A stretch of 64,000 bases of DNA from Candidatus Bathyarchaeota archaeon (GTDB lineage: Archaea > Thermoproteota > Bathyarchaeia > Bathyarchaeales > Bathycorpusculaceae). Positions 8,786 through 61,012 of the stretch are shown here, in pieces. Both the position numbers and the translations under genes were made by a program. The notes under the pieces were generated by a model, which saw only the letters and a program-made list of their open reading frames with translations, was not told the DNA's origin and ran no database searches. Numbering within the stretch: the stretch's first letter is position 1; each line of letters starts with the position of its first letter. The stretch lies in contig OY970340.1 in assembly GCA_963717465.1 (NCBI GenBank), positions 896,001 to 960,000 on the forward strand, read 5' to 3'.

Positions 8786-8882
8786 CGGGCCCGCTGGGAT
8801 TTGAACCCAGGATTTTCGGCTTTCTTCCGCTTAAAGAAGCGTCCGGAGGCCGACGCCTTAATCCGTACTAGACTACGAGCCC
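8786..8882 (-). tRNA. tRNA-Arg(CCG) with 21-nt intron (8822-8842) at position 37/38
   Basis: Acceptor stem GGGCTCG/CGGGCCC, anticodon stem TCGGC/GCCGA, T-loop GGTTCAAATCC; intron ACGCTTCTTTAAGCGGAAGAA forms a bulge-helix-bulge with one mismatch. Confidence 0.92.
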
Positions 8883-53041: not shown

Positions 53042-54717
53042 ATGTCCATCTTGGAAACTAAAGATCTTGTCTATACGTATCCTGGTGGTCAAAAGCCATC
53101 AATCGACGGAGTCTCCATAAAAGTGAAGAAAGGAGAATTCGTTTTGATTACTGGTCCAAGTGGCTGCGGGAAAACGACTTTGTGCCGATGTTTTAACGGT
53201 TTAATTCCTCATTTTTACCAAGGCGAATTACACGGCGAAATCCAAGTAACAGGATTAAACATTACTGAACACCCTACTCAAGAATTAGCACGGCATGTTG
53301 GCTTGGTTTTTCAAAATCCAGAAAATCAACTATTCGCTTTATCCGTCGAAAAAGACGTCGCGTTTGGCATGGAAAATCTCGGCGTACCCCGAAACGAAAT
53401 GCGCGAAAGAGTTGATTGGGCATTAAACATGACTGGAATCGCTAATTTACGCGAAAGATCGCCGCATGAGGTTTCTGGGGGTCAACAGCAACGTGTTGCA
53501 ATAGCATCGGTTCTTGCCATGAAACCGGAAATAATCGTTTTAGATGAACCCACATCTTTTCTTGACCCATTAAGCGCTGAAAAAATCTTTGAAGTTATCG
53601 CTGAACTTAACAAAAAGCAAGGCATAACAGTCATTCTAGTTGAGCATAGACTAGATTTAACGGCAAAGTACACTGACCATCTGATAGTGATGAATGAGGG
53701 AAAGGTTTGCTCTAGATGGAAATCCCCGAGAAATCCTTAATTCAGAGGAAACACGCCTAATCGGCGTCGGAATACCTAAAGCAACTCTCCTCTATCAAAT
53801 GCTAAAGAAAGACGGGTTAGAACTAGGAAAAACAATCCCGTTATCTTCTGAAGAATTGGCCGACCAACTGAGGGAGGCTTTGAGAGCATTGATTGAGGTT
53901 GAAGACATCCATTTTTCTTACCCTAGTCAAGTCGAGGCGCTAAAAGGCGTTTCATTGACTATAAATGATGGTGAATTTGTTGCCATCATGGGACAAAACG
54001 GTGCTGGAAAAACAACACTCGTTAAACACTTTAATGGTTTACTCAAGCCTTCACAAGGAAGCATCCGCGTTGACGGCGTTGAAACAAAAAAATCAAGCTG
54101 TTGCAGCGTTGTCTAGAAATATCGGTTTTGTTTTTCAGAATCCAGATCATCAGTTGTTCAGCGAAACCGTCGAAGAAGAAATAGGGTTCGCACTCAAGAA
54201 TTTTGGTTTTGAGCCAGAAACCATTGAAAAACAGATAACTTGGGCTCTAAACCTATTATCGTTAACGCAGTACAGGAAGACTTCACCGTTTATGCTCAGC
54301 GGGGGCGAACGCAAACGCGTTGCACTAGCCTCAGTGTTAGCTTGGGATCCTAAAACGTTGATTTTGGATGAGCCAACCATAGGCCAGGATCATGAACAAA
54401 AAGAAAAATTAAGGCAATTTATCATTCAAATGCAAACTCAGAAAAAAACAGTTGTTATAGTTACTCATGATGTGGAATTTGTTGCCGAATGCAACCCCCG
54501 TGTAATTTTCATGAAAGAAGGAAAAATCATCGGAGACGGCATTGGAAAAGAAATGCTTACAAATCAAGAACTACTTTCGCAATCATACATTGTTTTACCG
54601 CAAATAGCCCAAGTATTCAAAGATTTATCATCTTTAGGACTTCCAAGTGATATTATCGATATTTACGAAGCCAAAGATGTAATTTTGAAGGCTCAGGAGA
54701 GAAGAAGACAAAAATGA
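53042..54717 (+). CDS. ecfA: ECF transporter ATPase(s) EcfA/A' (apparently tandem, two frameshifts)
   Basis: Two Walker A motifs (GPSGCGKT, GQNGAGKT), FQNP, SGG, LDEPT. Confidence 0.85.
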
Positions 54718-55511
54718 GCATTTTTGACGGTTTAAAATTCCGCAAAGTCTCCTCGCCTATTCATAATTTAGATCCTCGAATAAAATTCATTTATGTTATC
54801 GTAGTTTTTGTTGCTGCAATACTTTTTCCCGAGTTACTCCCGTTACTTGTTCTCTTTATAATTCAAATTCCGTTTGTTTTTATTGCTCATGTTCAAAAAC
54901 AGTGGGTTCGTTCGTTACGCGGGGCGGCGTTCTTAGCTGCTTTCATTTTCACAATCAATGTCGCTACAAGCTACTTCATAAATCCAAGTAATTTCATAGT
55001 GAATTACGCCTTATCCATCGAGAATGCAGCTGCAATGACTATGCGTTTTGTCGTGCTCGTTGAGTCTTTCTCAGTTTTCTTCTTGACAACATCCCCAGAT
55101 CATTTAGGCTTAGCATTGGAAAATTCACGCATGCCTTACGAATTCGCCTTTGCCTTTACAACAGCAGTTCGCTTCGTTCCAGTTCTCGCTGAGGAAGCCC
55201 AAACAATAATGGATGCCCAAAAAGCAAGAGGGTTAGAAATGGAGAAAGGCAATCTAATGAAAAGAATCAGAAATTACATTCCAGTGCTCATACCCTTAAT
55301 AGTCAGCGCCATTCGCAGAAGTTTAGAGCTGGCTGAAGCAATGGAGTCACGTGCCTGGGGCGCAACTAAAAAACGCACAAACTTATACATGCTTAAGCTT
55401 CACAAGGGAGATTACGCGTTAATCGCCATCACAATTGGAATTTTGGCCTCTGCTATTTACGTCTACTTATACGTGCATATCCCACTTATCAGCCACCTGC
55501 TTGGTTACTAA
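54714..55511 (+). CDS. ecfT: ECF transporter T component
   Basis: LDPRIK, RFVP, AQKARG, AMESRA. Confidence 0.92.
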   Translation: MSIFDGLKFRKVSSPIHNLDPRIKFIYVIVVFVAAILFPELLPLLVLFIIQIPFVFIAHVQKQWVRSLRGAAFLAAFIFTINVATSYFINPSNFIVNYALSIENAAAMTMRFVVLVESFSVFFLTTSPDHLGLALENSRMPYEFAFAFTTAVRFVPVLAEEAQTIMDAQKARGLEMEKGNLMKRIRNYIPVLIPLIVSAIRRSLELAEAMESRAWGATKKRTNLYMLKLHKGDYALIAITIGILASAIYVYLYVHIPLISHLLGY

Positions 55512-55662
55512 CTCACAGTTTAAATGCTGCTCGATTCTCAACAAAATTGGACTAATATTAAATATCCCTGAAGAATTTATGATAATCAGAACTAATTGAA
55601 ATAATAGCCCAAAGACCTTTAAAAAGAACAAATGAAGGCTTTCAAGAGAGGTGAATCCTAAA

Positions 55663-56682
55663 ATGAACTATAGACTTACAAAAGCTGTACCGGTACATGG
55701 ATGAAGCTGCAAGCTCCCACAGTACCAGCTGGATAAACTTCTCGTCAAAGCCGGCGTGTCAATAAAACTTGGCGGCGAGTTGTTAGCTGGACCTTGGGAG
55801 AACTCAAGCGTCATGAAAATTGCAGAAGACCTTGCTTTACTGAACACTCTGGATTTTTTCACTCCGATAGTCGACGAACCCGAGGTACAGGGCAGAATCG
55901 CAGCAAACAATGTTACCAGCGACATTTACGCGATGGGCGTATCGAAAATAGTAAACGTTTTGTCAATTATGGGCTTTCCAGAGGAAATGCCAAACAAGTT
56001 AGCTGTAGGAATGCTGAAAGGATTCGCCGATTTTTGCCGAGAAATTGGTGCGCCTCTTGTTGGTGGGCACACAATTCGAAATCCATGGCCTATTTTGGGC
56101 GGTGCGGCGACCGGTGTTGCCAGCCCAAATAAAATTGTTTATACACGAGGTGCAAAACCTGACGATTTGTTGGTTTTAACTAAACCTTTGGGAATTCAGC
56201 CTGCTATGGCGGCTTATCGAATGTGGAAAGAGAAAACAGGCAGGGAATTGCTAAGTGATATCCCGAAAAAAGTGGTTAAAGATGCAATCTCTGGGGCGAT
56301 TGAAGTAATGACATCTTCGAATAAACCTGTAGCGGAGGCAATGCAGCAGGTTCCAGTCCATGCTGCTACTGACATTACGGGTTTTGGTTTGAAGGGTCAC
56401 GCTGAAAACATGGCAAAACTTGGTCAAGTAAATATTGTATTCGATGAATTAGCAGTTATCCGTGGTACGCCTGCTTTGGCTGAGGTGCAGGGTTATCCTT
56501 TGCTTAAGGGTGATGCAAGCGAGACTGCAGGAGGCATGCTTATAGCTGTAGGCAAAGGGGATTTAGATGATTTGCTTAAAGAGTTAGAAAAACGTAAGGT
56601 TAGACACTTTGAAGTTGGCCGTGTAATGAAGGGTCAAGGTACAGTGAAAATAGGTAAGCAAGTGAAAATTTTAGAAGTTTAA
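55663..56682 (+). CDS. selD: Selenophosphate synthetase, selenoprotein (UGA-Sec at codon 14, 55702-55704)
   Basis: SD GAGGTGA plus ATG at 55663, in frame: MNYRLTKAVPVHG[TGA]SCKLP; DFFTPIVD, SDIYAMG, GGHT, TKPLG, TDITGFGL.GH. Confidence 0.93.
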
Positions 56683-56741
56683 TTTTTCGCGTTAGCATTT
56701 ATTAACATCTTAGCATAGTCAAAGAAGAGAGGAAGAAAAAA

Positions 56742-58940
56742 GTGCCAGTTTCTCGCTGCCCATATCTACTTATAATGTGCGGGTTGCCTGCTTCAGGCAA
56801 AACAACCATATGCAGAAAGGTGGCTGCGATTCTCGAGGACAAACATGGCTTACCAACTATGATAATCAGCTCTGACGATTTCAGGCGTATGGTTACGTAT
56901 TCTAGTTCGGGATTTCAGCCTGAAAAAGAGGCGGCTATTAAGCTTCTTTTTGAAAGAGCAATAAGTACTGCCTTGGAAAATTCTTTTTTAGTAATTTGCG
57001 ATGACATGAACTATTATAAGTCGATGAGGGCAGACTTAGGCAAAATCGCTAAAAACTCAAATTCAGATTACGACATTGTCTTTGTCAATACTCCTGTTGA
57101 CTTAGCGTTAAAATGGAATCAGGAGCGGGGCTTTACAGTCCCTAATTCGCTTATTGAGGAAATTAACCAAAAACTAGACGCGCCCAAAGGCGATTATAAA
57201 TGGGATACTGCAATGGCCACCGTTGATCCGAGCAAACAGAGTTTAGATGAAATGGCAAACGTAATCGTCGGCGGCATTATTAAAAGATTGGAGAATCCAG
57301 TCAGAAGTAAACCCAAAAAGATTGTCGAGGACGAAAAATCATTAAGAGCACGGGGTATCGAGAGAGAAACTCGGAAATCAATGATGGAAGTTATGACGCG
57401 GTTCAAAAATCCAGATTTGGCTATTTCCCTCTCAAAGATCCGCAAGGAAGTAGTTAAGAAAGCCTTGCTGGAAGGGGTTCAACCCACAGTTGCTGTGGAA
57501 ATGTTCCTAAGAGGTGCTGATGAAGTCACCAAAGGTTTCGCCATGCCCGAGACGAAAGGGTTGATTTCAGTCCATGTAGGCTTATTTGGTCACGTGGATC
57601 ACGGCAAAACCATGCTTGCTAGACGATTAACAGAGAAGCCTTCAACTGCAGCGTTGGATAAAGCTCCTGATTCAGCGCGGCGTGGTATGACCTTGGATAT
57701 GGGTTTCTCAGCTTTCTGGCTTGACAATTACATGGTGACACTTGTTGACCTGCCGGGGCATTTTAGCTTAATTAGGCATGCAGCTGCGGGAGCCAACATT
57801 ATCGATTCTGCAATACTTGTTGTCGCGGCGGATCTTGGCTTGCAGATTCAAAGTGTCGAGCATTTTTCAATAATTAAAAACTTGGGCATAAAGGATCTTG
57901 TCGTGGCTTTAAACAAGATTGATGCGGCTTCTCCTGACAGAATCGAGGAAGTAAAAAAGAAAATCGCGCTTATGCTGAAAGGAACACGATACGAGAACGC
58001 CAAGATAGTTGGAGTTTCAGGCTTAACAGGCGCTGGCATGGAGGAATTAAAGAATGAAATCAAGATGTCACTTAAGCCTCCCGTTAGGCAATGGGTTGGG
58101 CCTTTTAAGATGCCCATTGATCACGCATTCATAATCGCTGGAGTCGGCACCGTTTTAACTGGAACAATTCATCGTGGAAAAGTAAAACTGAAGGATACTG
58201 TTGAGATCAAGCCGATCGATAAGACTGGGCAAGTCAGGTCTTTGAGGTCTTTTGGTGAAGAAAAGGAAGAAGCAATCGCTGGTGACCGCGTTGGAATGGC
58301 TGTTAAGGATATTAAACCTGATGATGCTCACAGAGGTTTCATCGCTTGCACCCCAGGGTCAATTAAGTCTACCCAGCGTATGCTTGTAGAATTTGAAATG
58401 GACAAGTATTACAAGCGTTCGATGGAGCCCAAAAGTGGAGTAACAGCATTCGTTGGGTCCTATGAAGTGTTAGCAACTGCTACACCTGGAACACTTGAAA
58501 ACTCAAAATTCGTTGTTAAACCTTCAATCAGAGACGGAGAAAAATGCACAATTTATCTGGAACTTAAGGAGCCAGTGGTAGCGGAAAGCGGTGACCGTGT
58601 TCTACTGTTAAATACCGGGCTTCAAGCACGTGAATTCCGAATAATCGGCGGAGGAAGAATCATCGAAACAGAGAAAATACCTGAATTCTTCTCAAGAAAA
58701 GTCAAATCAGGAACCGTGAAGGAAAAGCAAACAGACAACAACTACATCATAAGCGGTTTAGCCAATGCTGAAGGCGCAGCTGTAAAGTATACGAAGAAGC
58801 AGATCACGACTGCAGCTGGCGTAAAAGGGGAAATTATCTCTCCTTCAAAATCAAGTGGAGATGTCGTTGCCACGTTTATCCAGCCGGTTCAGGTAGGCGA
58901 AAAAGTGTTTCTCGTTAAATATAAGAAACTGCAGGTTTGA
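56742..58940 (+). CDS. pstK-selB: Fused O-phosphoseryl-tRNA(Sec) kinase (PSTK) and Sec-specific elongation factor SelB
   Basis: N-terminal GLPASGKT, DDMNYYKSMR, YKWD, ERETRK; from ~aa 268 GHVDHGKT, RGMTLDMGFSAF, DLPGH, NKID, IDHAF, AGDRVG. Confidence 0.88.
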   Translation: MPVSRCPYLLIMCGLPASGKTTICRKVAAILEDKHGLPTMIISSDDFRRMVTYSSSGFQPEKEAAIKLLFERAISTALENSFLVICDDMNYYKSMRADLGKIAKNSNSDYDIVFVNTPVDLALKWNQERGFTVPNSLIEEINQKLDAPKGDYKWDTAMATVDPSKQSLDEMANVIVGGIIKRLENPVRSKPKKIVEDEKSLRARGIERETRKSMMEVMTRFKNPDLAISLSKIRKEVVKKALLEGVQPTVAVEMFLRGADEVTKGFAMPETKGLISVHVGLFGHVDHGKTMLARRLTEKPSTAALDKAPDSARRGMTLDMGFSAFWLDNYMVTLVDLPGHFSLIRHAAAGANIIDSAILVVAADLGLQIQSVEHFSIIKNLGIKDLVVALNKIDAASPDRIEEVKKKIALMLKGTRYENAKIVGVSGLTGAGMEELKNEIKMSLKPPVRQWVGPFKMPIDHAFIIAGVGTVLTGTIHRGKVKLKDTVEIKPIDKTGQVRSLRSFGEEKEEAIAGDRVGMAVKDIKPDDAHRGFIACTPGSIKSTQRMLVEFEMDKYYKRSMEPKSGVTAFVGSYEVLATATPGTLENSKFVVKPSIRDGEKCTIYLELKEPVVAESGDRVLLLNTGLQAREFRIIGGGRIIETEKIPEFFSRKVKSGTVKEKQTDNNYIISGLANAEGAAVKYTKKQITTAAGVKGEIISPSKSSGDVVATFIQPVQVGEKVFLVKYKKLQV

Positions 58941-59818
58941 GCGTTAAAGACTTGACTGAACGTACACGTTTTGGTCCAGCCGGTGTTCCTCCACCTTTTC
59001 GGATTCTTAGAGCCAAGTTATCGGATGTTCCTGGGCTTCTGCGGGAAGAGGGTCTTGATGCGTTTGAGTATCAAGCTTCACGTTGGGGTGCGACACCGCA
59101 AATCAAACAAGAGGATGCTGAGAAATTGGGCCTTGAAGCAAAGAAAAACGATGTCAAGCTCAGCGTTCATGGGTCCTACTTCATTAACCTATCTGGAAAA
59201 GATGATATCGTTGAAGCAAGCAAGCAACGTTTGATTGCTGGTGCAACCGCGGCGCAGTGGATGGGAGCATACGTCGTTGTTTTTCACTTGGGTTTTTATG
59301 GCCGATTTGAAAAGAGTTTTGCCTTCAAAAACTGCGTAACCGCTTTGAAAGACGTAAGTCAAACCTTAAAGAGTCTAGGAATCAAGGTGAAGCTCGGTCC
59401 AGAGACGATGGGCAGAAAATTTCAAGTCGGATCACTTGACGAAATATTAACGATTTGCCAAGAAGTTGAAGGCACACAGTTGGTTATTGATTGGGGCCAT
59501 CTCCATGCGAGAAATCAGGGCGCATTCAAAAAAATTGAGGATTTCCGATCAGCCGTTGAAAAAGTTGAGTACCAACTCGGAACAGAAGCGATAAAGAATA
59601 TGCACTGTCACTTCTCTAAAATCGAGTTCTCCAGCCAAGGAGAAAAGAGGCATCGAACATTGGAGGAAAAAAGGTATGGCCCAGACTTTGCGTTGCTTGC
59701 TCAAGTGATTGCGGATTTTAATTTGTATCCGACTTTGATTTGTGAAACGCCTCTTTTGGATATTGACGCAGTTAAAATGCGAGAAATTTATGATGGCGTA
59801 CTGAAAGGAAAAATGTAA
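58937..59818 (+). CDS. nfo: Endonuclease IV-family AP endonuclease
   Basis: RFGPAG, HGSYFINL, ETMGR..QVG, DWGHLHAR, HCHFS, ICETP. Confidence 0.9.
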   Translation: MSVKDLTERTRFGPAGVPPPFRILRAKLSDVPGLLREEGLDAFEYQASRWGATPQIKQEDAEKLGLEAKKNDVKLSVHGSYFINLSGKDDIVEASKQRLIAGATAAQWMGAYVVVFHLGFYGRFEKSFAFKNCVTALKDVSQTLKSLGIKVKLGPETMGRKFQVGSLDEILTICQEVEGTQLVIDWGHLHARNQGAFKKIEDFRSAVEKVEYQLGTEAIKNMHCHFSKIEFSSQGEKRHRTLEEKRYGPDFALLAQVIADFNLYPTLICETPLLDIDAVKMREIYDGVLKGKM

Positions 59819-60082
59819 AAATAATCGTTGTCCTTTAGTTTAATGGTCTCAGCAGCAAGCTTGAAAATAAGCAATCCCTACAAAATCAATATCTTATTTT
59901 TGGCTCGACTGGAACTATCGCCTTACTGGCAAAAGCCTGACGACTTCATAGGCTTGTGCAGTTGAGGGATACTGAGAAGCGCTTTAATTTCGGCGCACCT
60001 TTAAAATATTAATTTAAAACAAGCAGCTAAGTAATTGCTCGTTCATAACTTTAATAGCTTTAGTTTCTTGGATTAAGTTAGG

Positions 60083-61012
60083 TTAATTCAAGAGTGTTTT
60101 CAATATTTTTGATTTTATTTCTCTGTTCGTGCGCAACTGCCAGATGGAAAGTATCTCAATTATCGATAGGGCAACAACCACATAAACGGAAATCCAATCA
60201 TATCCATACATCTGAGAAACAATATTGCCATTTGTTTCTTTTTGTAGAAAGGTGAATCCGATGTTATAATAGAAGAAAAATGGCAAATTTGTTATCGTAA
60301 TAAAAGCAATCGAACCGGCGATGAATTGCCATAAGCCCTTCCTATTATACCATAAAAGTAGGGGTAACGCAATAAGCGAACCACGAGGGTCAAATGCACT
60401 TAAGGCAAAGAAAATTGCTGAGGACCAAGGCTTTTTAGCAAAACCAAAGTAGAATGCGCCCACTATGAAAGCCGCTTGAATTACGTGTGCATTTCCCAAA
60501 GCATACCCGTCGTAGTAAAGTGGGCACAGTGAATGAAAAAATATGGAGAGAGAATTATATTCGTTAGGGGTTATAGGAAAGCCTGGCACTGGTGCAACTA
60601 TGACTAGAAAGGTTGCAACTGCACCTAGAATGAGGCTCTTATCTTTTACAAGCTTGTAAACAAAGAAAGCTAAAACAAAAATAGAGGCAGCCTGCAACAG
60701 ATCAAAAGCTGTAAAAGCATTCTGATAGCTAAATGCTAAAAAAGGTGAAAACCACAAGAAAAATGACGGTGCGTACTTGAAGACTTGAGGCGTTGGAGTT
60801 ATCGGATAGTCACCAGGATAAAACCCGGCATCATAGATAGCCGTTGGGTTATGAAACAGCCTCCATGCACCAATGTAATATGCTGAAAAATCTCGCGCTA
60901 GCTCCGTTGACATGGGACTAAAAGTTACAGGGTAAGCAATAATGAACGATAATATGTTTATCGTTAAAGCTATGATAATTACTGAAATTATCAGCAACTT
61001 TTTAGGAAGCAT
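60083..61012 (-). CDS. Membrane GT-C glycosyltransferase (GT87/DUF2029-like)
   Basis: RDFSAYY, FKYAP, GN motif, many TM helices. Confidence 0.7.
   Translation of the reverse strand: MLPKKLLIISVIIIALTINILSFIIAYPVTFSPMSTELARDFSAYYIGAWRLFHNPTAIYDAGFYPGDYPITPTPQVFKYAPSFFLWFSPFLAFSYQNAFTAFDLLQAASIFVLAFFVYKLVKDKSLILGAVATFLVIVAPVPGFPITPNEYNSLSIFFHSLCPLYYDGYALGNAHVIQAAFIVGAFYFGFAKKPWSSAIFFALSAFDPRGSLIALPLLLWYNRKGLWQFIAGSIAFITITNLPFFFYYNIGFTFLQKETNGNIVSQMYGYDWISVYVVVALSIIEILSIWQLRTNREIKSKILKTLLN

What the first reader, a model, noticed from the sequence alone, without database searches (positions are those of the whole stretch)
55663..56682. selD with an in-frame UGA at the catalytic site: selenocysteine recoding in a probable Bathyarchaeia genome
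Seen: the ORF track starts selD at 55756, but a TATA-like TTTAAAAA (~55618), an SD GAGGTGA and an ATG at 55663 give MNYRLTKAVPVHG-TGA-SCKLP in the same frame. Established: SelD needs Cys or Sec in a C/U-x-x-K motif near the N-terminus, and Methanococcales SelD reads HGUACKLP. The TGA falls exactly on that residue, and the next gene encodes Sec-decoding machinery. Archaeal Sec use is best known in Methanococcales, Methanopyrus and Asgard lineages. I am not aware of it being established in Bathyarchaeia, so this may be a new Sec-using lineage (inference; taxonomy unverified).
Basis: partly seen in the sequence, partly recalled or inferred. Interest (0 to 1): 0.9.

Follow-up and report, generated by a model that had tools for sequence, protein, structure and literature searches.

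The report
Selenocysteine codon in archaeal selD gene
The gene for the enzyme that activates selenium really does contain a UGA read as selenocysteine at its active site, but this recoding system was already published for this archaeal group, so the newer lead is an RNA hairpin inside the gene just after the UGA.

Summary
ATG 55663 opens a 339-codon selD with an in-frame TGA at 55702-55704 (HG-U-SCKLP). In 19 related genomes that column is TGA in 6 and Cys in 13. The next gene is a PSTK-aSelB fusion. The single-contig genome also holds two tRNA-Sec(UCA) genes, SepSecS, a second fusion, and other UGA-containing genes (HdrA-MvhD, a molybdoenzyme family).

The "new Sec-using lineage" reading does not hold. 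Mukai et al. (Front Genet 2022, PMC8762117) already describe this fused Sec system in "diverse Bathyarchaeota", including a tRNA-Sec U6:U67 mismatch that I also see here. Selenoprotein reviews still omit the group. I could not verify the class assignment.

New here: selD has no structured 3' region. The 111 nt from the UGA fold into one long hairpin (-40.8 kcal/mol, 0 of 1000 synonymous recodings as stable). Its arms are frozen at synonymous sites in the Sec forms. Early-branching Cys forms keep some of this structure, so a Sec-specific role is not proven.

Within the genus, most species have Cys-SelD and have lost the decoding machinery.

Earlier notes of this scan reported the same Sec system and in-gene hairpins in other windows of this same genome, not on other DNA.

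The parts
55618..55625 (+). TATA-like TTTAAAAA box upstream of selD
   Evidence: Sequence read. Function is inferred from its position about 38 nt before the start codon; not tested.
55648..55654 (+). Shine-Dalgarno-like GAGGTGA, 8 nt before the ATG
   Evidence: Sequence read; inferred.
55663..56682 (+). selD (selenide, water dikinase), 339 codons plus stop, read through one UGA
   Evidence: translation. NF010705 353.8 bits and TIGR00476 246.9 bits, both above cut-off. AIRS and AIRS_C domains. Best solved relatives are selenophosphate synthetases. The start position is shared with orthologues.
55702..55704 (+). UGA codon 14, read as selenocysteine
   Evidence: Aligns with TGA in 5 other genomes and with Cys in 13. 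Lies in the G-[U/C/T]-x-C-K loop aligned to solved SEPHS1.
55702..55744 (+). 43-nt block identical to the selD of genome G217, starting exactly at the UGA
   Evidence: the longest identical run is 43 nt and the next longest is 17 nt, with 70.4% overall nucleotide identity. Codon identity at identical residues in the three Sec forms is 32/36 in the 12 codons after U, against 10/32 before it.
55714..55800 (+). Long irregular hairpin inside the coding sequence, the candidate recoding signal. Outer helix 55714-55719 / 55795-55800; inner helix 55725-55731 / 55784-55790; apical loop near 55758-55766.
   Evidence: -40.8 kcal/mol, z -3.12, 0 of 200 shuffles as stable; z -4.47, 0 of 1000 synonymous recodings as stable; 10 control windows in the same gene have z +0.31 to -0.76; both lower helices are fully paired in the 3 Sec forms; consensus fold of 4 Sec forms.
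56683..56741 (+). 59-nt AT-rich spacer between selD and the next gene, with no sign of a 3'-UTR SECIS
   Evidence: 56680-56745 folds at -4.5 kcal/mol, z +1.07; no Rfam SECIS family at E<=10 in 55400-60300.
56742..58940 (+). PSTK-aSelB fusion gene (732 aa): Ser-tRNA[Sec] kinase joined to the archaeal Sec-specific elongation factor
   Evidence: KTI12/PSTK at residues 9-241 (TIGR03574 148 bits, below its cut-off of 290.5). selB TIGR00475 270.9 bits, above cut-off, at residues 278-647. Residues 276-727 align with residues 19-478 of the 482-residue solved archaeal SelB 4ac9.

Best explanation
selD at 55663-56682 is an intact selenoprotein gene. Codon 14 (UGA, 55702-55704) is read as selenocysteine, the selenium-binding residue of the N-terminal G-U-x-C-K loop of selenophosphate synthetase. 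Decoding uses the genome's own archaeal/eukaryal-type pathway. tRNA-Sec(UCA) is charged with serine. The PSTK half of the neighbouring fusion protein phosphorylates it. SepSecS converts it to Sec-tRNA using the selenophosphate that SelD itself makes. The aSelB half of the fusion delivers it to the ribosome. These components are shown to be present; their activities are inferred from family membership. Second tier, inferred at about 50%: the signal that marks this UGA is not a 3'-UTR element as in methanogens and Asgard archaea. It is a long hairpin inside the coding sequence (55714-55800) that begins 9 nt after the UGA. Because the aSelB half has no bacterial-type RNA-binding extension, the hairpin would have to be read by aSelB domain IV or by an unidentified factor.
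For: Gene and site: SelD equivalog models above cut-off. U14 aligns with Cys in 13 genomes and with TGA in 5 others, with conserved flanks. It also aligns with the active-site loop of solved SEPHS1.

Machinery: two tRNA-Sec(UCA) genes. SepSecS at 400.2 bits lies next to tRNA-Sec #1. The PSTK-aSelB fusion lies 60 nt downstream of selD.

Sec use elsewhere in the genome: Pfam domains span the UGA in HdrA-MvhD (FlpD 457-580 over U465, E 7.5e-47) and in 3 of 3 tested molybdoenzyme paralogues. These UGAs are followed 6-7 nt later by hairpins of -18 to -22 kcal/mol, against a background mean of -6.0.

Hairpin at selD: -40.8 kcal/mol, z -3.12, 0/200 shuffles. With the protein held fixed, z is -4.47 with 0/1000 for G000, -5.53 with 0/1000 for G217, and -3.55 with 1/1000 for G229. 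Ten control windows in the same gene have z +0.31 to -0.76. Synonymous sites are frozen after the UGA only in Sec forms: 32/36 against 268/565 in Cys forms. The two lower helices pair 6/6 and 7/7 in all 3 Sec forms, against 3-6 and 4-7 in 11 Cys forms. The 59-nt downstream spacer is unstructured, and no Rfam SECIS family matched.
Against: There is no protein or selenium-labelling evidence. The TGA could not be checked in raw reads, because the only run found covers 55712-56051 and misses it.

For the hairpin tier:
- Only one of 27 consensus pairs shows a compensatory change, so support comes from conservation and thermodynamics, not covariation.
- The Sec forms compared are few and related: 3 genomes plus 1 metagenomic locus.
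- The three earliest-branching Cys forms also keep excess structure (z -2.88, -3.80, -2.56), and two of them (G283, G038) have no SepSecS, tRNA-Sec or fusion. The hairpin is therefore either a decaying relic or serves something other than Sec insertion.
- applied G000's codon usage to all genomes, which is an approximation.
- Within 48 nt of the UGA, selD has only a weak 5-bp stem (-6.3 kcal/mol, z +0.56), unlike the compact hairpins of the other genes.
- Distant Sec-form selD genes (G103, G110, G037) and the metagenomic locus L133 have different hairpins.
- The aSelB half aligns end to end with the solved archaeal SelB and has no extra RNA-binding domain.
Confidence: 0.9

Rival explanations
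1. The UGA is recoded as Sec, but the long in-gene hairpin is not the recoding signal. It would instead regulate selD translation or mRNA stability, or be a historical relic. The true SECIS would lie elsewhere, for example at the 3' end of the selD/PSTK-aSelB transcript or in another form.
For: Cys-form selD genes of G283 and G038 keep excess structure (z -3.80 and -2.56), although those genomes lack the fusion, SepSecS and tRNA-Sec. There is almost no covariation. The fusion's SelB half has no bacterial-type RNA-binding extension. Published archaeal SECIS elements are in UTRs (PMC11227280, passages read).
Against: The 59-nt spacer after selD is unstructured. No known SECIS family matched anywhere in 55400-60300, though as far as I recall Rfam has no archaeal SECIS model, so this is weak. 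Every other confirmed UGA gene I examined in this genome has its own hairpin 6-7 nt after the UGA. The structure signal fades in later-branching Cys forms (z -0.83, -0.07, +1.32), as expected of a relic of a Sec signal.
Confidence: 0.3
2. The TGA is a true stop. The real gene starts at GTG 55756 and the upstream 13 codons are chance.
For: A standard ORF call gives 55756-56682.
Against: That product would lack the whole N-terminal catalytic loop. The 13 upstream codons and the start position are conserved in all 19 related genomes, and in 13 of them the frame is open with Cys at this column. The SelD model aligns from residue 3 of the read-through protein.
Confidence: 0.02
3. The TGA is an assembly or sequencing error, or selD is a fresh pseudogene.
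For: Raw reads over the site could not be examined. In this genus G000 is the only Sec form among 12 selD-bearing genomes. The relative G232 does have a broken selD and a broken fusion.
Against: The same TGA at the same column is found in five other genomes and one metagenomic contig. The rest of the frame is intact. The full decoding machinery is present. Synonymous sites next to the TGA are under constraint.
Confidence: 0.03

Closest known systems
Sec-encoding system of Bathyarchaeota with a PSTK-aSelB fusion (Mukai et al., Front Genet 2022, PMC8762117; section 3.4.1 and other passages read, figures not visible)
   Same: PSTK and aSelB are fused in one ORF. The tRNA-Sec has a U.U mismatch at the eighth acceptor pair; that this pair is 6:67 in Sec numbering is my recall. 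SepSecS is present.
   Different: The paper ties the fusion to genomes that have SepRS-SepCysS but lack SepCysE. G000 has neither SepRS (best 50.2 bits, cut-off 380.65) nor SepCysS (best 44.1 bits, cut-off 365.25). The paper's main text never mentions SECIS. G000 has two fusion genes and two tRNA-Sec genes.
Sec-containing SelD/SPS of Methanococcales, Methanopyrus and Asgard archaea
   Same: Sec sits in the N-terminal loop of an archaeal/eukaryal-type selenophosphate synthetase. SelD is described as present in nearly all Sec-using archaea (PMC13188914). This protein is closer to human SEPHS1 (178.6 bits) than to E. coli SelD (102.5 bits).
   Different: In those lineages the SECIS is placed in the 3'-UTR (PMC11227280). 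Here the downstream spacer is unstructured, and the candidate element lies inside the gene.
Bacterial SECIS (hairpin in the coding sequence just after the UGA, bound by SelB)
   Same: The position is the same: a stem-loop inside the ORF starting a few nucleotides after the UGA.
   Different: The selD element spans 87 nt, far longer than the compact hairpins of the other genes here. The factor is an archaeal aSelB that aligns end to end with 4ac9 and has no extra C-terminal domains. Sec synthesis uses PSTK and SepSecS, not SelA.

Membership tests
SelD / selenophosphate synthetase | Whole-protein score above the curated equivalog cut-off | tested here: met
   NF010705 353.8 bits (cut-off 291); TIGR00476 246.9 bits (cut-off 125).
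SelD / selenophosphate synthetase | AIR-synthase-like N- and C-terminal domains | tested here: met
   PF00586 at residues 46-153 and PF02769 at residues 165-326.
SelD / selenophosphate synthetase | N-terminal loop with Sec or Cys followed by x-x-Lys | tested here: met
   G13-U14-S-C16-K17. It aligns with G-T-G-C-K of solved SEPHS1 and with G-C-S-C-K in 13 orthologues. That this is the catalytic residue is established knowledge, stated in PMC13188914.
SelD / selenophosphate synthetase | ATP-dependent selenophosphate synthesis | not testable with these tools
   Needs an enzyme assay.
Selenoprotein gene (genuine Sec-UGA) | In-frame UGA aligned with Cys or Sec in orthologues, with conservation on both sides | tested here: met
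   6 TGA and 13 Cys in 19 genomes; 1 TGA and 13 Cys in 14 metagenomic loci.
Selenoprotein gene (genuine Sec-UGA) | Genome encodes tRNA-Sec, PSTK, SepSecS, SelB and SelD | tested here: met
Selenoprotein gene (genuine Sec-UGA) | A SECIS element | tested here: inconclusive
   There is a strong in-gene hairpin candidate, but almost no covariation, and it is partly retained in Cys forms.
Selenoprotein gene (genuine Sec-UGA) | Selenium in the protein | not testable with these tools
   Needs 75Se labelling or mass spectrometry.
Archaeal 3'-UTR SECIS (methanogen or Asgard type) | Structured element in the untranslated region after the gene | tested here: not met
   56680-56745 folds at -4.5 kcal/mol, z +1.07. 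Nothing from Rfam in 55400-60300. The 3' end of the whole operon transcript was not mapped.
Bacterial SECIS | Hairpin in the ORF immediately after the UGA | tested here: met
   The outer helix starts 9 nt after the UGA. Other genes in this genome have hairpins 6-7 nt after theirs.
Bacterial SECIS | Read by C-terminal winged-helix domains of bacterial SelB | tested here: not met
   The SelB half aligns with residues 19-478 of the 482-residue archaeal SelB 4ac9 and ends there.
Bathyarchaeota Sec system (Mukai et al. 2022) | PSTK and aSelB in one ORF | tested here: met
Bathyarchaeota Sec system (Mukai et al. 2022) | tRNA-Sec with a U6:U67 mismatch (wetland-sediment lineage) | tested here: met
   Both tRNA-Sec genes show a non-canonical U.U at the eighth acceptor pair. 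Equating that pair with 6:67 rests on my recalled numbering.
Bathyarchaeota Sec system (Mukai et al. 2022) | Coexists with SepRS-SepCysS and lacks SepCysE | tested here: not met
   No SepRS or SepCysS above cut-off in G000.
Bathyarchaeota Sec system (Mukai et al. 2022) | The organism belongs to Bathyarchaeia | tested here: inconclusive
   Bathy-442F and Bathy-644R match the 16S gene with 1 mismatch each, but the 644R site occurs in 188 of 401 genomes across the phylum. MCG528F (recalled) matches with 1 mismatch; MCG732R (recalled) has no match. The one named relative is titled 'Candidatus Nanoarchaeia archaeon'.

The most novel reading that the evidence does not exclude
This archaeal lineage marks its Sec-UGA codons with RNA hairpins inside the coding sequence, the bacterial position, while using a purely archaeal/eukaryal synthesis and delivery pathway: PSTK, SepSecS, and an aSelB with no bacterial RNA-binding domains, fused to PSTK. 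selD carries an unusually long 87-nt version of such a hairpin. Its gradual decay in Cys-form relatives records how a lineage gives up selenocysteine step by step: Sec changes to Cys in SelD, the decoding genes are lost, and then the hairpin erodes. This would be a third way of pairing a SECIS with its machinery. I found it in none of the papers I searched (passages).
Probability: 0.45. Interest if true: 0.75.

Novelty: new member of a known kind. Interest (0 to 1): 0.42.

Why it matters
As written, the finding (Sec in SelD, a possible new Sec lineage) repeats something already in print, so on its own it matters little. It does show that gene callers truncate selD here, and that selenoprotein reviews have not absorbed the Bathyarchaeota report.

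Three things add value. First, the published rationale for the PSTK-aSelB fusion is protection of Sep-tRNA[Sec] from SepCysS. That cannot apply in a genome with no SepCysS, so the fusion needs another explanation. Second, selD joins the other UGA genes of this genome in having its structured element inside the gene, not in a UTR. If that element is functional, it changes the textbook split between bacterial and archaeal/eukaryal SECIS placement, and it can be tested with existing archaeal reporter systems. Third, the genus offers a natural series for studying loss of the 21st amino acid:
- Sec-SelD with the machinery (G000)
- Cys-SelD with the machinery (G187)
- Cys-SelD without the machinery (at least four genomes)
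- broken genes (G232, in the sister genus g6)

Tried and rejected
- **Raw-read confirmation of the TGA.** The look-up of sequencing runs listed one run (X1, share 0.05; no RNA holder listed). Its contigs cover only 55712-56051 and miss the codon. Not informative.
- **48-nt folding window after the UGA.** It gave only a weak 5-bp stem (-6.3 kcal/mol, z +0.56), which first suggested selD had no local element. The window was too short.
- **5' leader as a SECIS site.** 55600-55665 folds at -7.8 kcal/mol, z -0.86, with 36 of 200 shuffles as stable. Rejected.
- **Taxonomy.**
  - The one scan of named genomes returned a single relative, titled 'Candidatus Nanoarchaeia archaeon'. I doubt that label because class members here are mostly 1.2-3.1 Mb.
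  - treekit holds only title-derived ranks.
  - Two papers cite the MCG primers without printing them.
  - Recalled MCG primers gave one hit and one miss.
  - Printed Bathy primers matched, but the control showed the site is not class-specific.
- **Mukai et al. supplement.** It holds methods text and figure captions only, with no named sequences.
- **SelU as the user of selenophosphate in Sec-less relatives.** Not found in 21 genus genomes.
- **Pfam on 80 read-through candidates in one call.** I then sent 14 that I picked by eye from the printed translations. L109-L122 were never printed or scanned, so the selenoprotein list is incomplete.
- **Candidates whose domain does not span the TGA.** FTR, PPK2, CCG-domain protein, radical-SAM/B12 protein, MttB-like protein. 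Not counted as selenoproteins.

Full report
**1. The observation**

The sequence is as described. TTTAAAAA lies at 55618-55625, GAGGTGA at 55648-55654, ATG at 55663, TGA at 55702-55704, and the stop at 56680-56682. A plain ORF list starts this frame only at GTG 55756. Read with TGA=U, the frame gives 339 residues beginning MNYRLTKAVPVHG-U-SCKLP.

The read-through protein passes two SelD equivalog models: NF010705 at 353.8 bits (cut-off 291) and TIGR00476 at 246.9 bits (cut-off 125). It has the AIRS and AIRS_C domains. Its best solved relatives are selenophosphate synthetases. The stretch hGCsCKlPq aligns with kGTgCKvPq of human SEPHS1. The protein is closer to that eukaryotic enzyme (178.6 bits) than to E. 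coli SelD (102.5 bits).

**2. Is the UGA a Sec codon?**

I searched SelD in 301 genomes sampled from the same class. Nineteen have it, counting G000. I aligned the N-termini.
- The column is TGA in 6 genomes: G000; G217 and G229 of sister genus g6; and G103, G110 and G037 of other families.
- It is TGC or TGT in 13, with the flanks YRLTK..VHG and SCKLP conserved.

A metagenome scan gave 17 loci. Of the 14 that include the N-terminus, 13 have Cys and 1 (L133) has TGA. This is the classical Sec/Cys signature. It rules out a chance ORF extension and makes a sequencing error very unlikely.

**3. The machinery**

The genome is a single 3,053,889-bp contig (CheckM 88.2% complete, 1.0% contaminated). 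It contains:
- **tRNA-Sec #1:** anticodon UCA, at C1:845693-845779, 71.8 bits.
- **tRNA-Sec #2:** anticodon UCA, at C1:2829638-2829725, 61.8 bits.
- **SepSecS:** 400.2 bits, at C1:845799-846923, 20 nt from tRNA-Sec #1.
- **PSTK-aSelB fusion:** the gene after selD (window 56742-58940), with KTI12/PSTK at residues 9-241 and selB at residues 278-647. Its SelB half aligns end to end with the solved archaeal SelB 4ac9, at residues 19-478 of 482.
- **A second fusion gene:** 54% identical, beside tRNA-Sec #2. It is a long-branched sister of all family copies.

**4. Other selenoprotein genes**

My own scan of read-through ORFs gave 1841 raw candidates. Of these, 232 passed a coding-score filter and 88 passed an overlap filter.
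- Domains span the UGA in HdrA-MvhD (FlpD 457-580 over U465; a second UGA at codon 212 of the same gene).
- Domains also span the UGA in 3 of 3 molybdopterin-enzyme paralogues. Nine such paralogues passed my final filter.
- In these genes a hairpin of -18 to -22 kcal/mol starts 6-7 nt after the UGA. The background mean for 48-nt windows is -6.0.
- A DegT aminotransferase and a truncated PEPCK also have a domain crossing a TGA. I did not resolve what these are.

Earlier notes of this scan on other windows of this genome make the same claims about these genes. I treated them as leads and checked them as described.

**5. Where is selD's recoding signal?**
- The 59-nt spacer after selD is AT-rich and unstructured (z +1.07).
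- No Rfam SECIS family matches 55400-60300 even at E<=10.
- Within 48 nt of the UGA there is only a weak stem.

Conservation pointed further out. G000 and G217 share a 43-nt identical run that starts exactly at the TGA. The next longest run is 17 nt, and overall identity is 70.4%. In the three family-type Sec forms, codon identity at identical residues is 32/36 in the 12 codons after U, against 10/32 before it and 44.5% overall. The 11 Cys forms of the genus show 268/565 in the same window (14 sequences used, with the broken G232 gene and four distant ones left out).

A second conserved block at codons 41-46 is complementary to the first. The 111 nt from the UGA fold into one long irregular hairpin at 55714-55800, at -40.8 kcal/mol, z -3.12, with 0 of 200 shuffles as stable.

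With the protein sequence held fixed and synonymous codons resampled, the results are:

| Genome | z | Recodings at least as stable |
|---|---|---|
| G000 | -4.47 | 0/1000 |
| G217 | -5.53 | 0/1000 |
| G229 | -3.55 | 1/1000 |

Ten control windows elsewhere in G000 selD give z +0.31 to -0.76. The two lower helices are fully paired (6/6 and 7/7) in the three Sec forms, and 3-6 and 4-7 in the Cys forms.

**6. Limits of the hairpin reading**
- The consensus fold of four Sec forms has 27 pairs. Only one shows a compensatory change; there are four wobble-compatible single changes and a few breaks.
- The sequences are few and related.
- The three earliest-branching Cys forms still show excess structure: G187 z -2.88, G283 z -3.80, G038 z -2.56. 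Later-branching ones do not: -0.83, -0.07 and +1.32 (6 of the 11 Cys forms tested, G000 codon usage used throughout).
- G283 and G038 have no decoding machinery. The structure is therefore either a relic that decays after the Sec-to-Cys change, or it has a function unrelated to Sec.
- Distant Sec-form selD genes and L133 have different hairpins after their UGA.

I put the in-gene hairpin being the recoding signal at about 50%.

**7. Evolution within the group**

With the Sec/Cys column dropped, G000's SelD groups with the g6 Sec forms (support 83/82). The 11 Cys forms of its own genus form a clade (91/87) (18 rows, G232 left out).

Full-length fusion genes occur in 9 of the 301 genomes: G000, G187, G217, G229, G103, G110, G037, G220, and, split by a stop, G232.

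Ten genomes of the genus have Cys-SelD but no fusion. I tested four of them (90-100% complete), and none has SepSecS or a tRNA-Sec above cut-off. The positive control G187 has tRNA-Sec, SepSecS and the fusion within 5 kb. SelU was not found in 21 genus genomes, so what those species do with selenophosphate is open.

**8. Comparison with the literature**

Mukai et al. (PMC8762117; passages and section 3.4.1 read, figures not visible) report that diverse Bathyarchaeota have a PSTK-aSelB fusion. They also report a wetland-sediment lineage with a U6:U67 mismatch in tRNA-Sec. They propose that the fusion shields Sep-tRNA[Sec] from SepCysS where SepCysE is missing. A 2022 review repeats this (PMC9499178).

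Both G000 tRNA-Sec genes have a U.U mismatch at the eighth acceptor pair. That this pair is 6:67 in Sec numbering is my recall.

G000 has neither SepRS nor SepCysS, so the shielding rationale cannot apply to it.

- The Mukai main text does not mention SECIS.
- The 2026 selenoproteome review limits archaeal Sec use to Methanococcales, Methanopyrales and Asgard, and never mentions Bathyarchaeota (PMC13188914, passages).
- The 2024 Asgard paper places archaeal SECIS elements in 3'-UTRs (PMC11227280, passages).
- My searches for Sec or SECIS with Bathyarchaeota or Bathyarchaeia (listings) found no description of in-gene SECIS elements in this group.
- Figure 9B of Mukai et al., which I could not see, may show selD and could bear on this.

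**9. Taxonomy**

Not settled. The system's architecture matches what Mukai et al. assign to Bathyarchaeota. Printed Bathyarchaeota primers (PMC10077295, Supplementary Table S3) match the 16S gene with one mismatch each, in the right orientation and 220 bp apart. My control found the reverse-primer site in 188 of 401 genomes across the phylum, so it does not identify the class. The only named relative carries an NCBI title of 'Candidatus Nanoarchaeia archaeon'. That fits poorly with class genome sizes, which are mostly 1.2-3.1 Mb.

**10. Verdict**

The lineage-novelty claim fails against the literature. What remains of interest is the in-gene hairpin, the fusion in a genome without SepCysS, and the stepwise loss series among relatives.

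Noticed in passing
G000:C1:2827369-2829725 (outside the window): A second PSTK-aSelB fusion gene (54% identical, 740-aa open frame) lies about 90 nt from a second tRNA-Sec. That tRNA differs from the first by a compensatory G-C to U-A change at acceptor pair 4. No relative searched has two fusions.
   Followed up: partly
Genomes G038, G283, G151, G157 (same genus): These genomes have 'orphan' Cys-SelD. They keep an intact selD but have no SepSecS, no tRNA-Sec above cut-off, no fusion and no SelU. What uses their selenophosphate is unknown.
   Followed up: partly
G232:C14:57121-62255 (loci L024, L029, L034): In this sister-genus genome both selD (split, with a TAA) and the adjacent fusion gene (split into 555 and 205 aa by a TAA) look broken. 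This may be a Sec system caught while decaying.
   Followed up: no
G000:C1:477144-478286 (-), locus L073: A DegT/DnrJ/EryC1 aminotransferase domain (E 2.2e-123, residues 21-375) runs straight across an in-frame TGA at codon 279. It could be a selenoprotein, a read-through gene or a fresh pseudogene.
   Followed up: no
G000:C1:2734515-2735630 (+), locus L060; and C1:1121393-1122982 (+), locus L052: A PEPCK gene has a TGA inside its N-terminal domain and a truncated C-terminal domain, so it is probably a pseudogene. An MttB-like gene has an in-frame TGA at codon 339, outside the matched part of the family model.
   Followed up: no
window 8786-8882 (-): A 97-nt tRNA gene has a 25-nt insertion in the anticodon loop region, presumably an intron. 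ARAGORN could not name its anticodon.
   Followed up: no
window 53042-54717 (+): Two ECF-transporter ATPase ORFs are bridged by an overlapping 140-aa ORF. The first matches only positions 2-217 of a 269-position model, and the second starts at position 69 of its model. This suggests a frameshift or an unusual split.
   Followed up: no
Loci L031 (G187, genus g1) and L032 (G217, genus g6): The fusion proteins of these two genomes from different genera are nearly identical in the tree (branches 0.037 and 0.068). Their SelD proteins differ (Cys against Sec) and fall in different clades. This hints at transfer of the decoding cluster between genera.
   Followed up: no
Locus L009 (DATJPJ010000252.1): A contig whose fusion protein is 70% identical to the window's is titled 'Candidatus Nanoarchaeia archaeon'. 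That label looks inconsistent with the genome sizes of this group.
   Followed up: no
window 55712-56051: A soil-metagenome run holds contigs about 96-97% identical to selD. Two of the differences (C to T at 55746 and 55809) fall opposite a G in the predicted hairpin and would keep the pairs as G.U.
   Followed up: no
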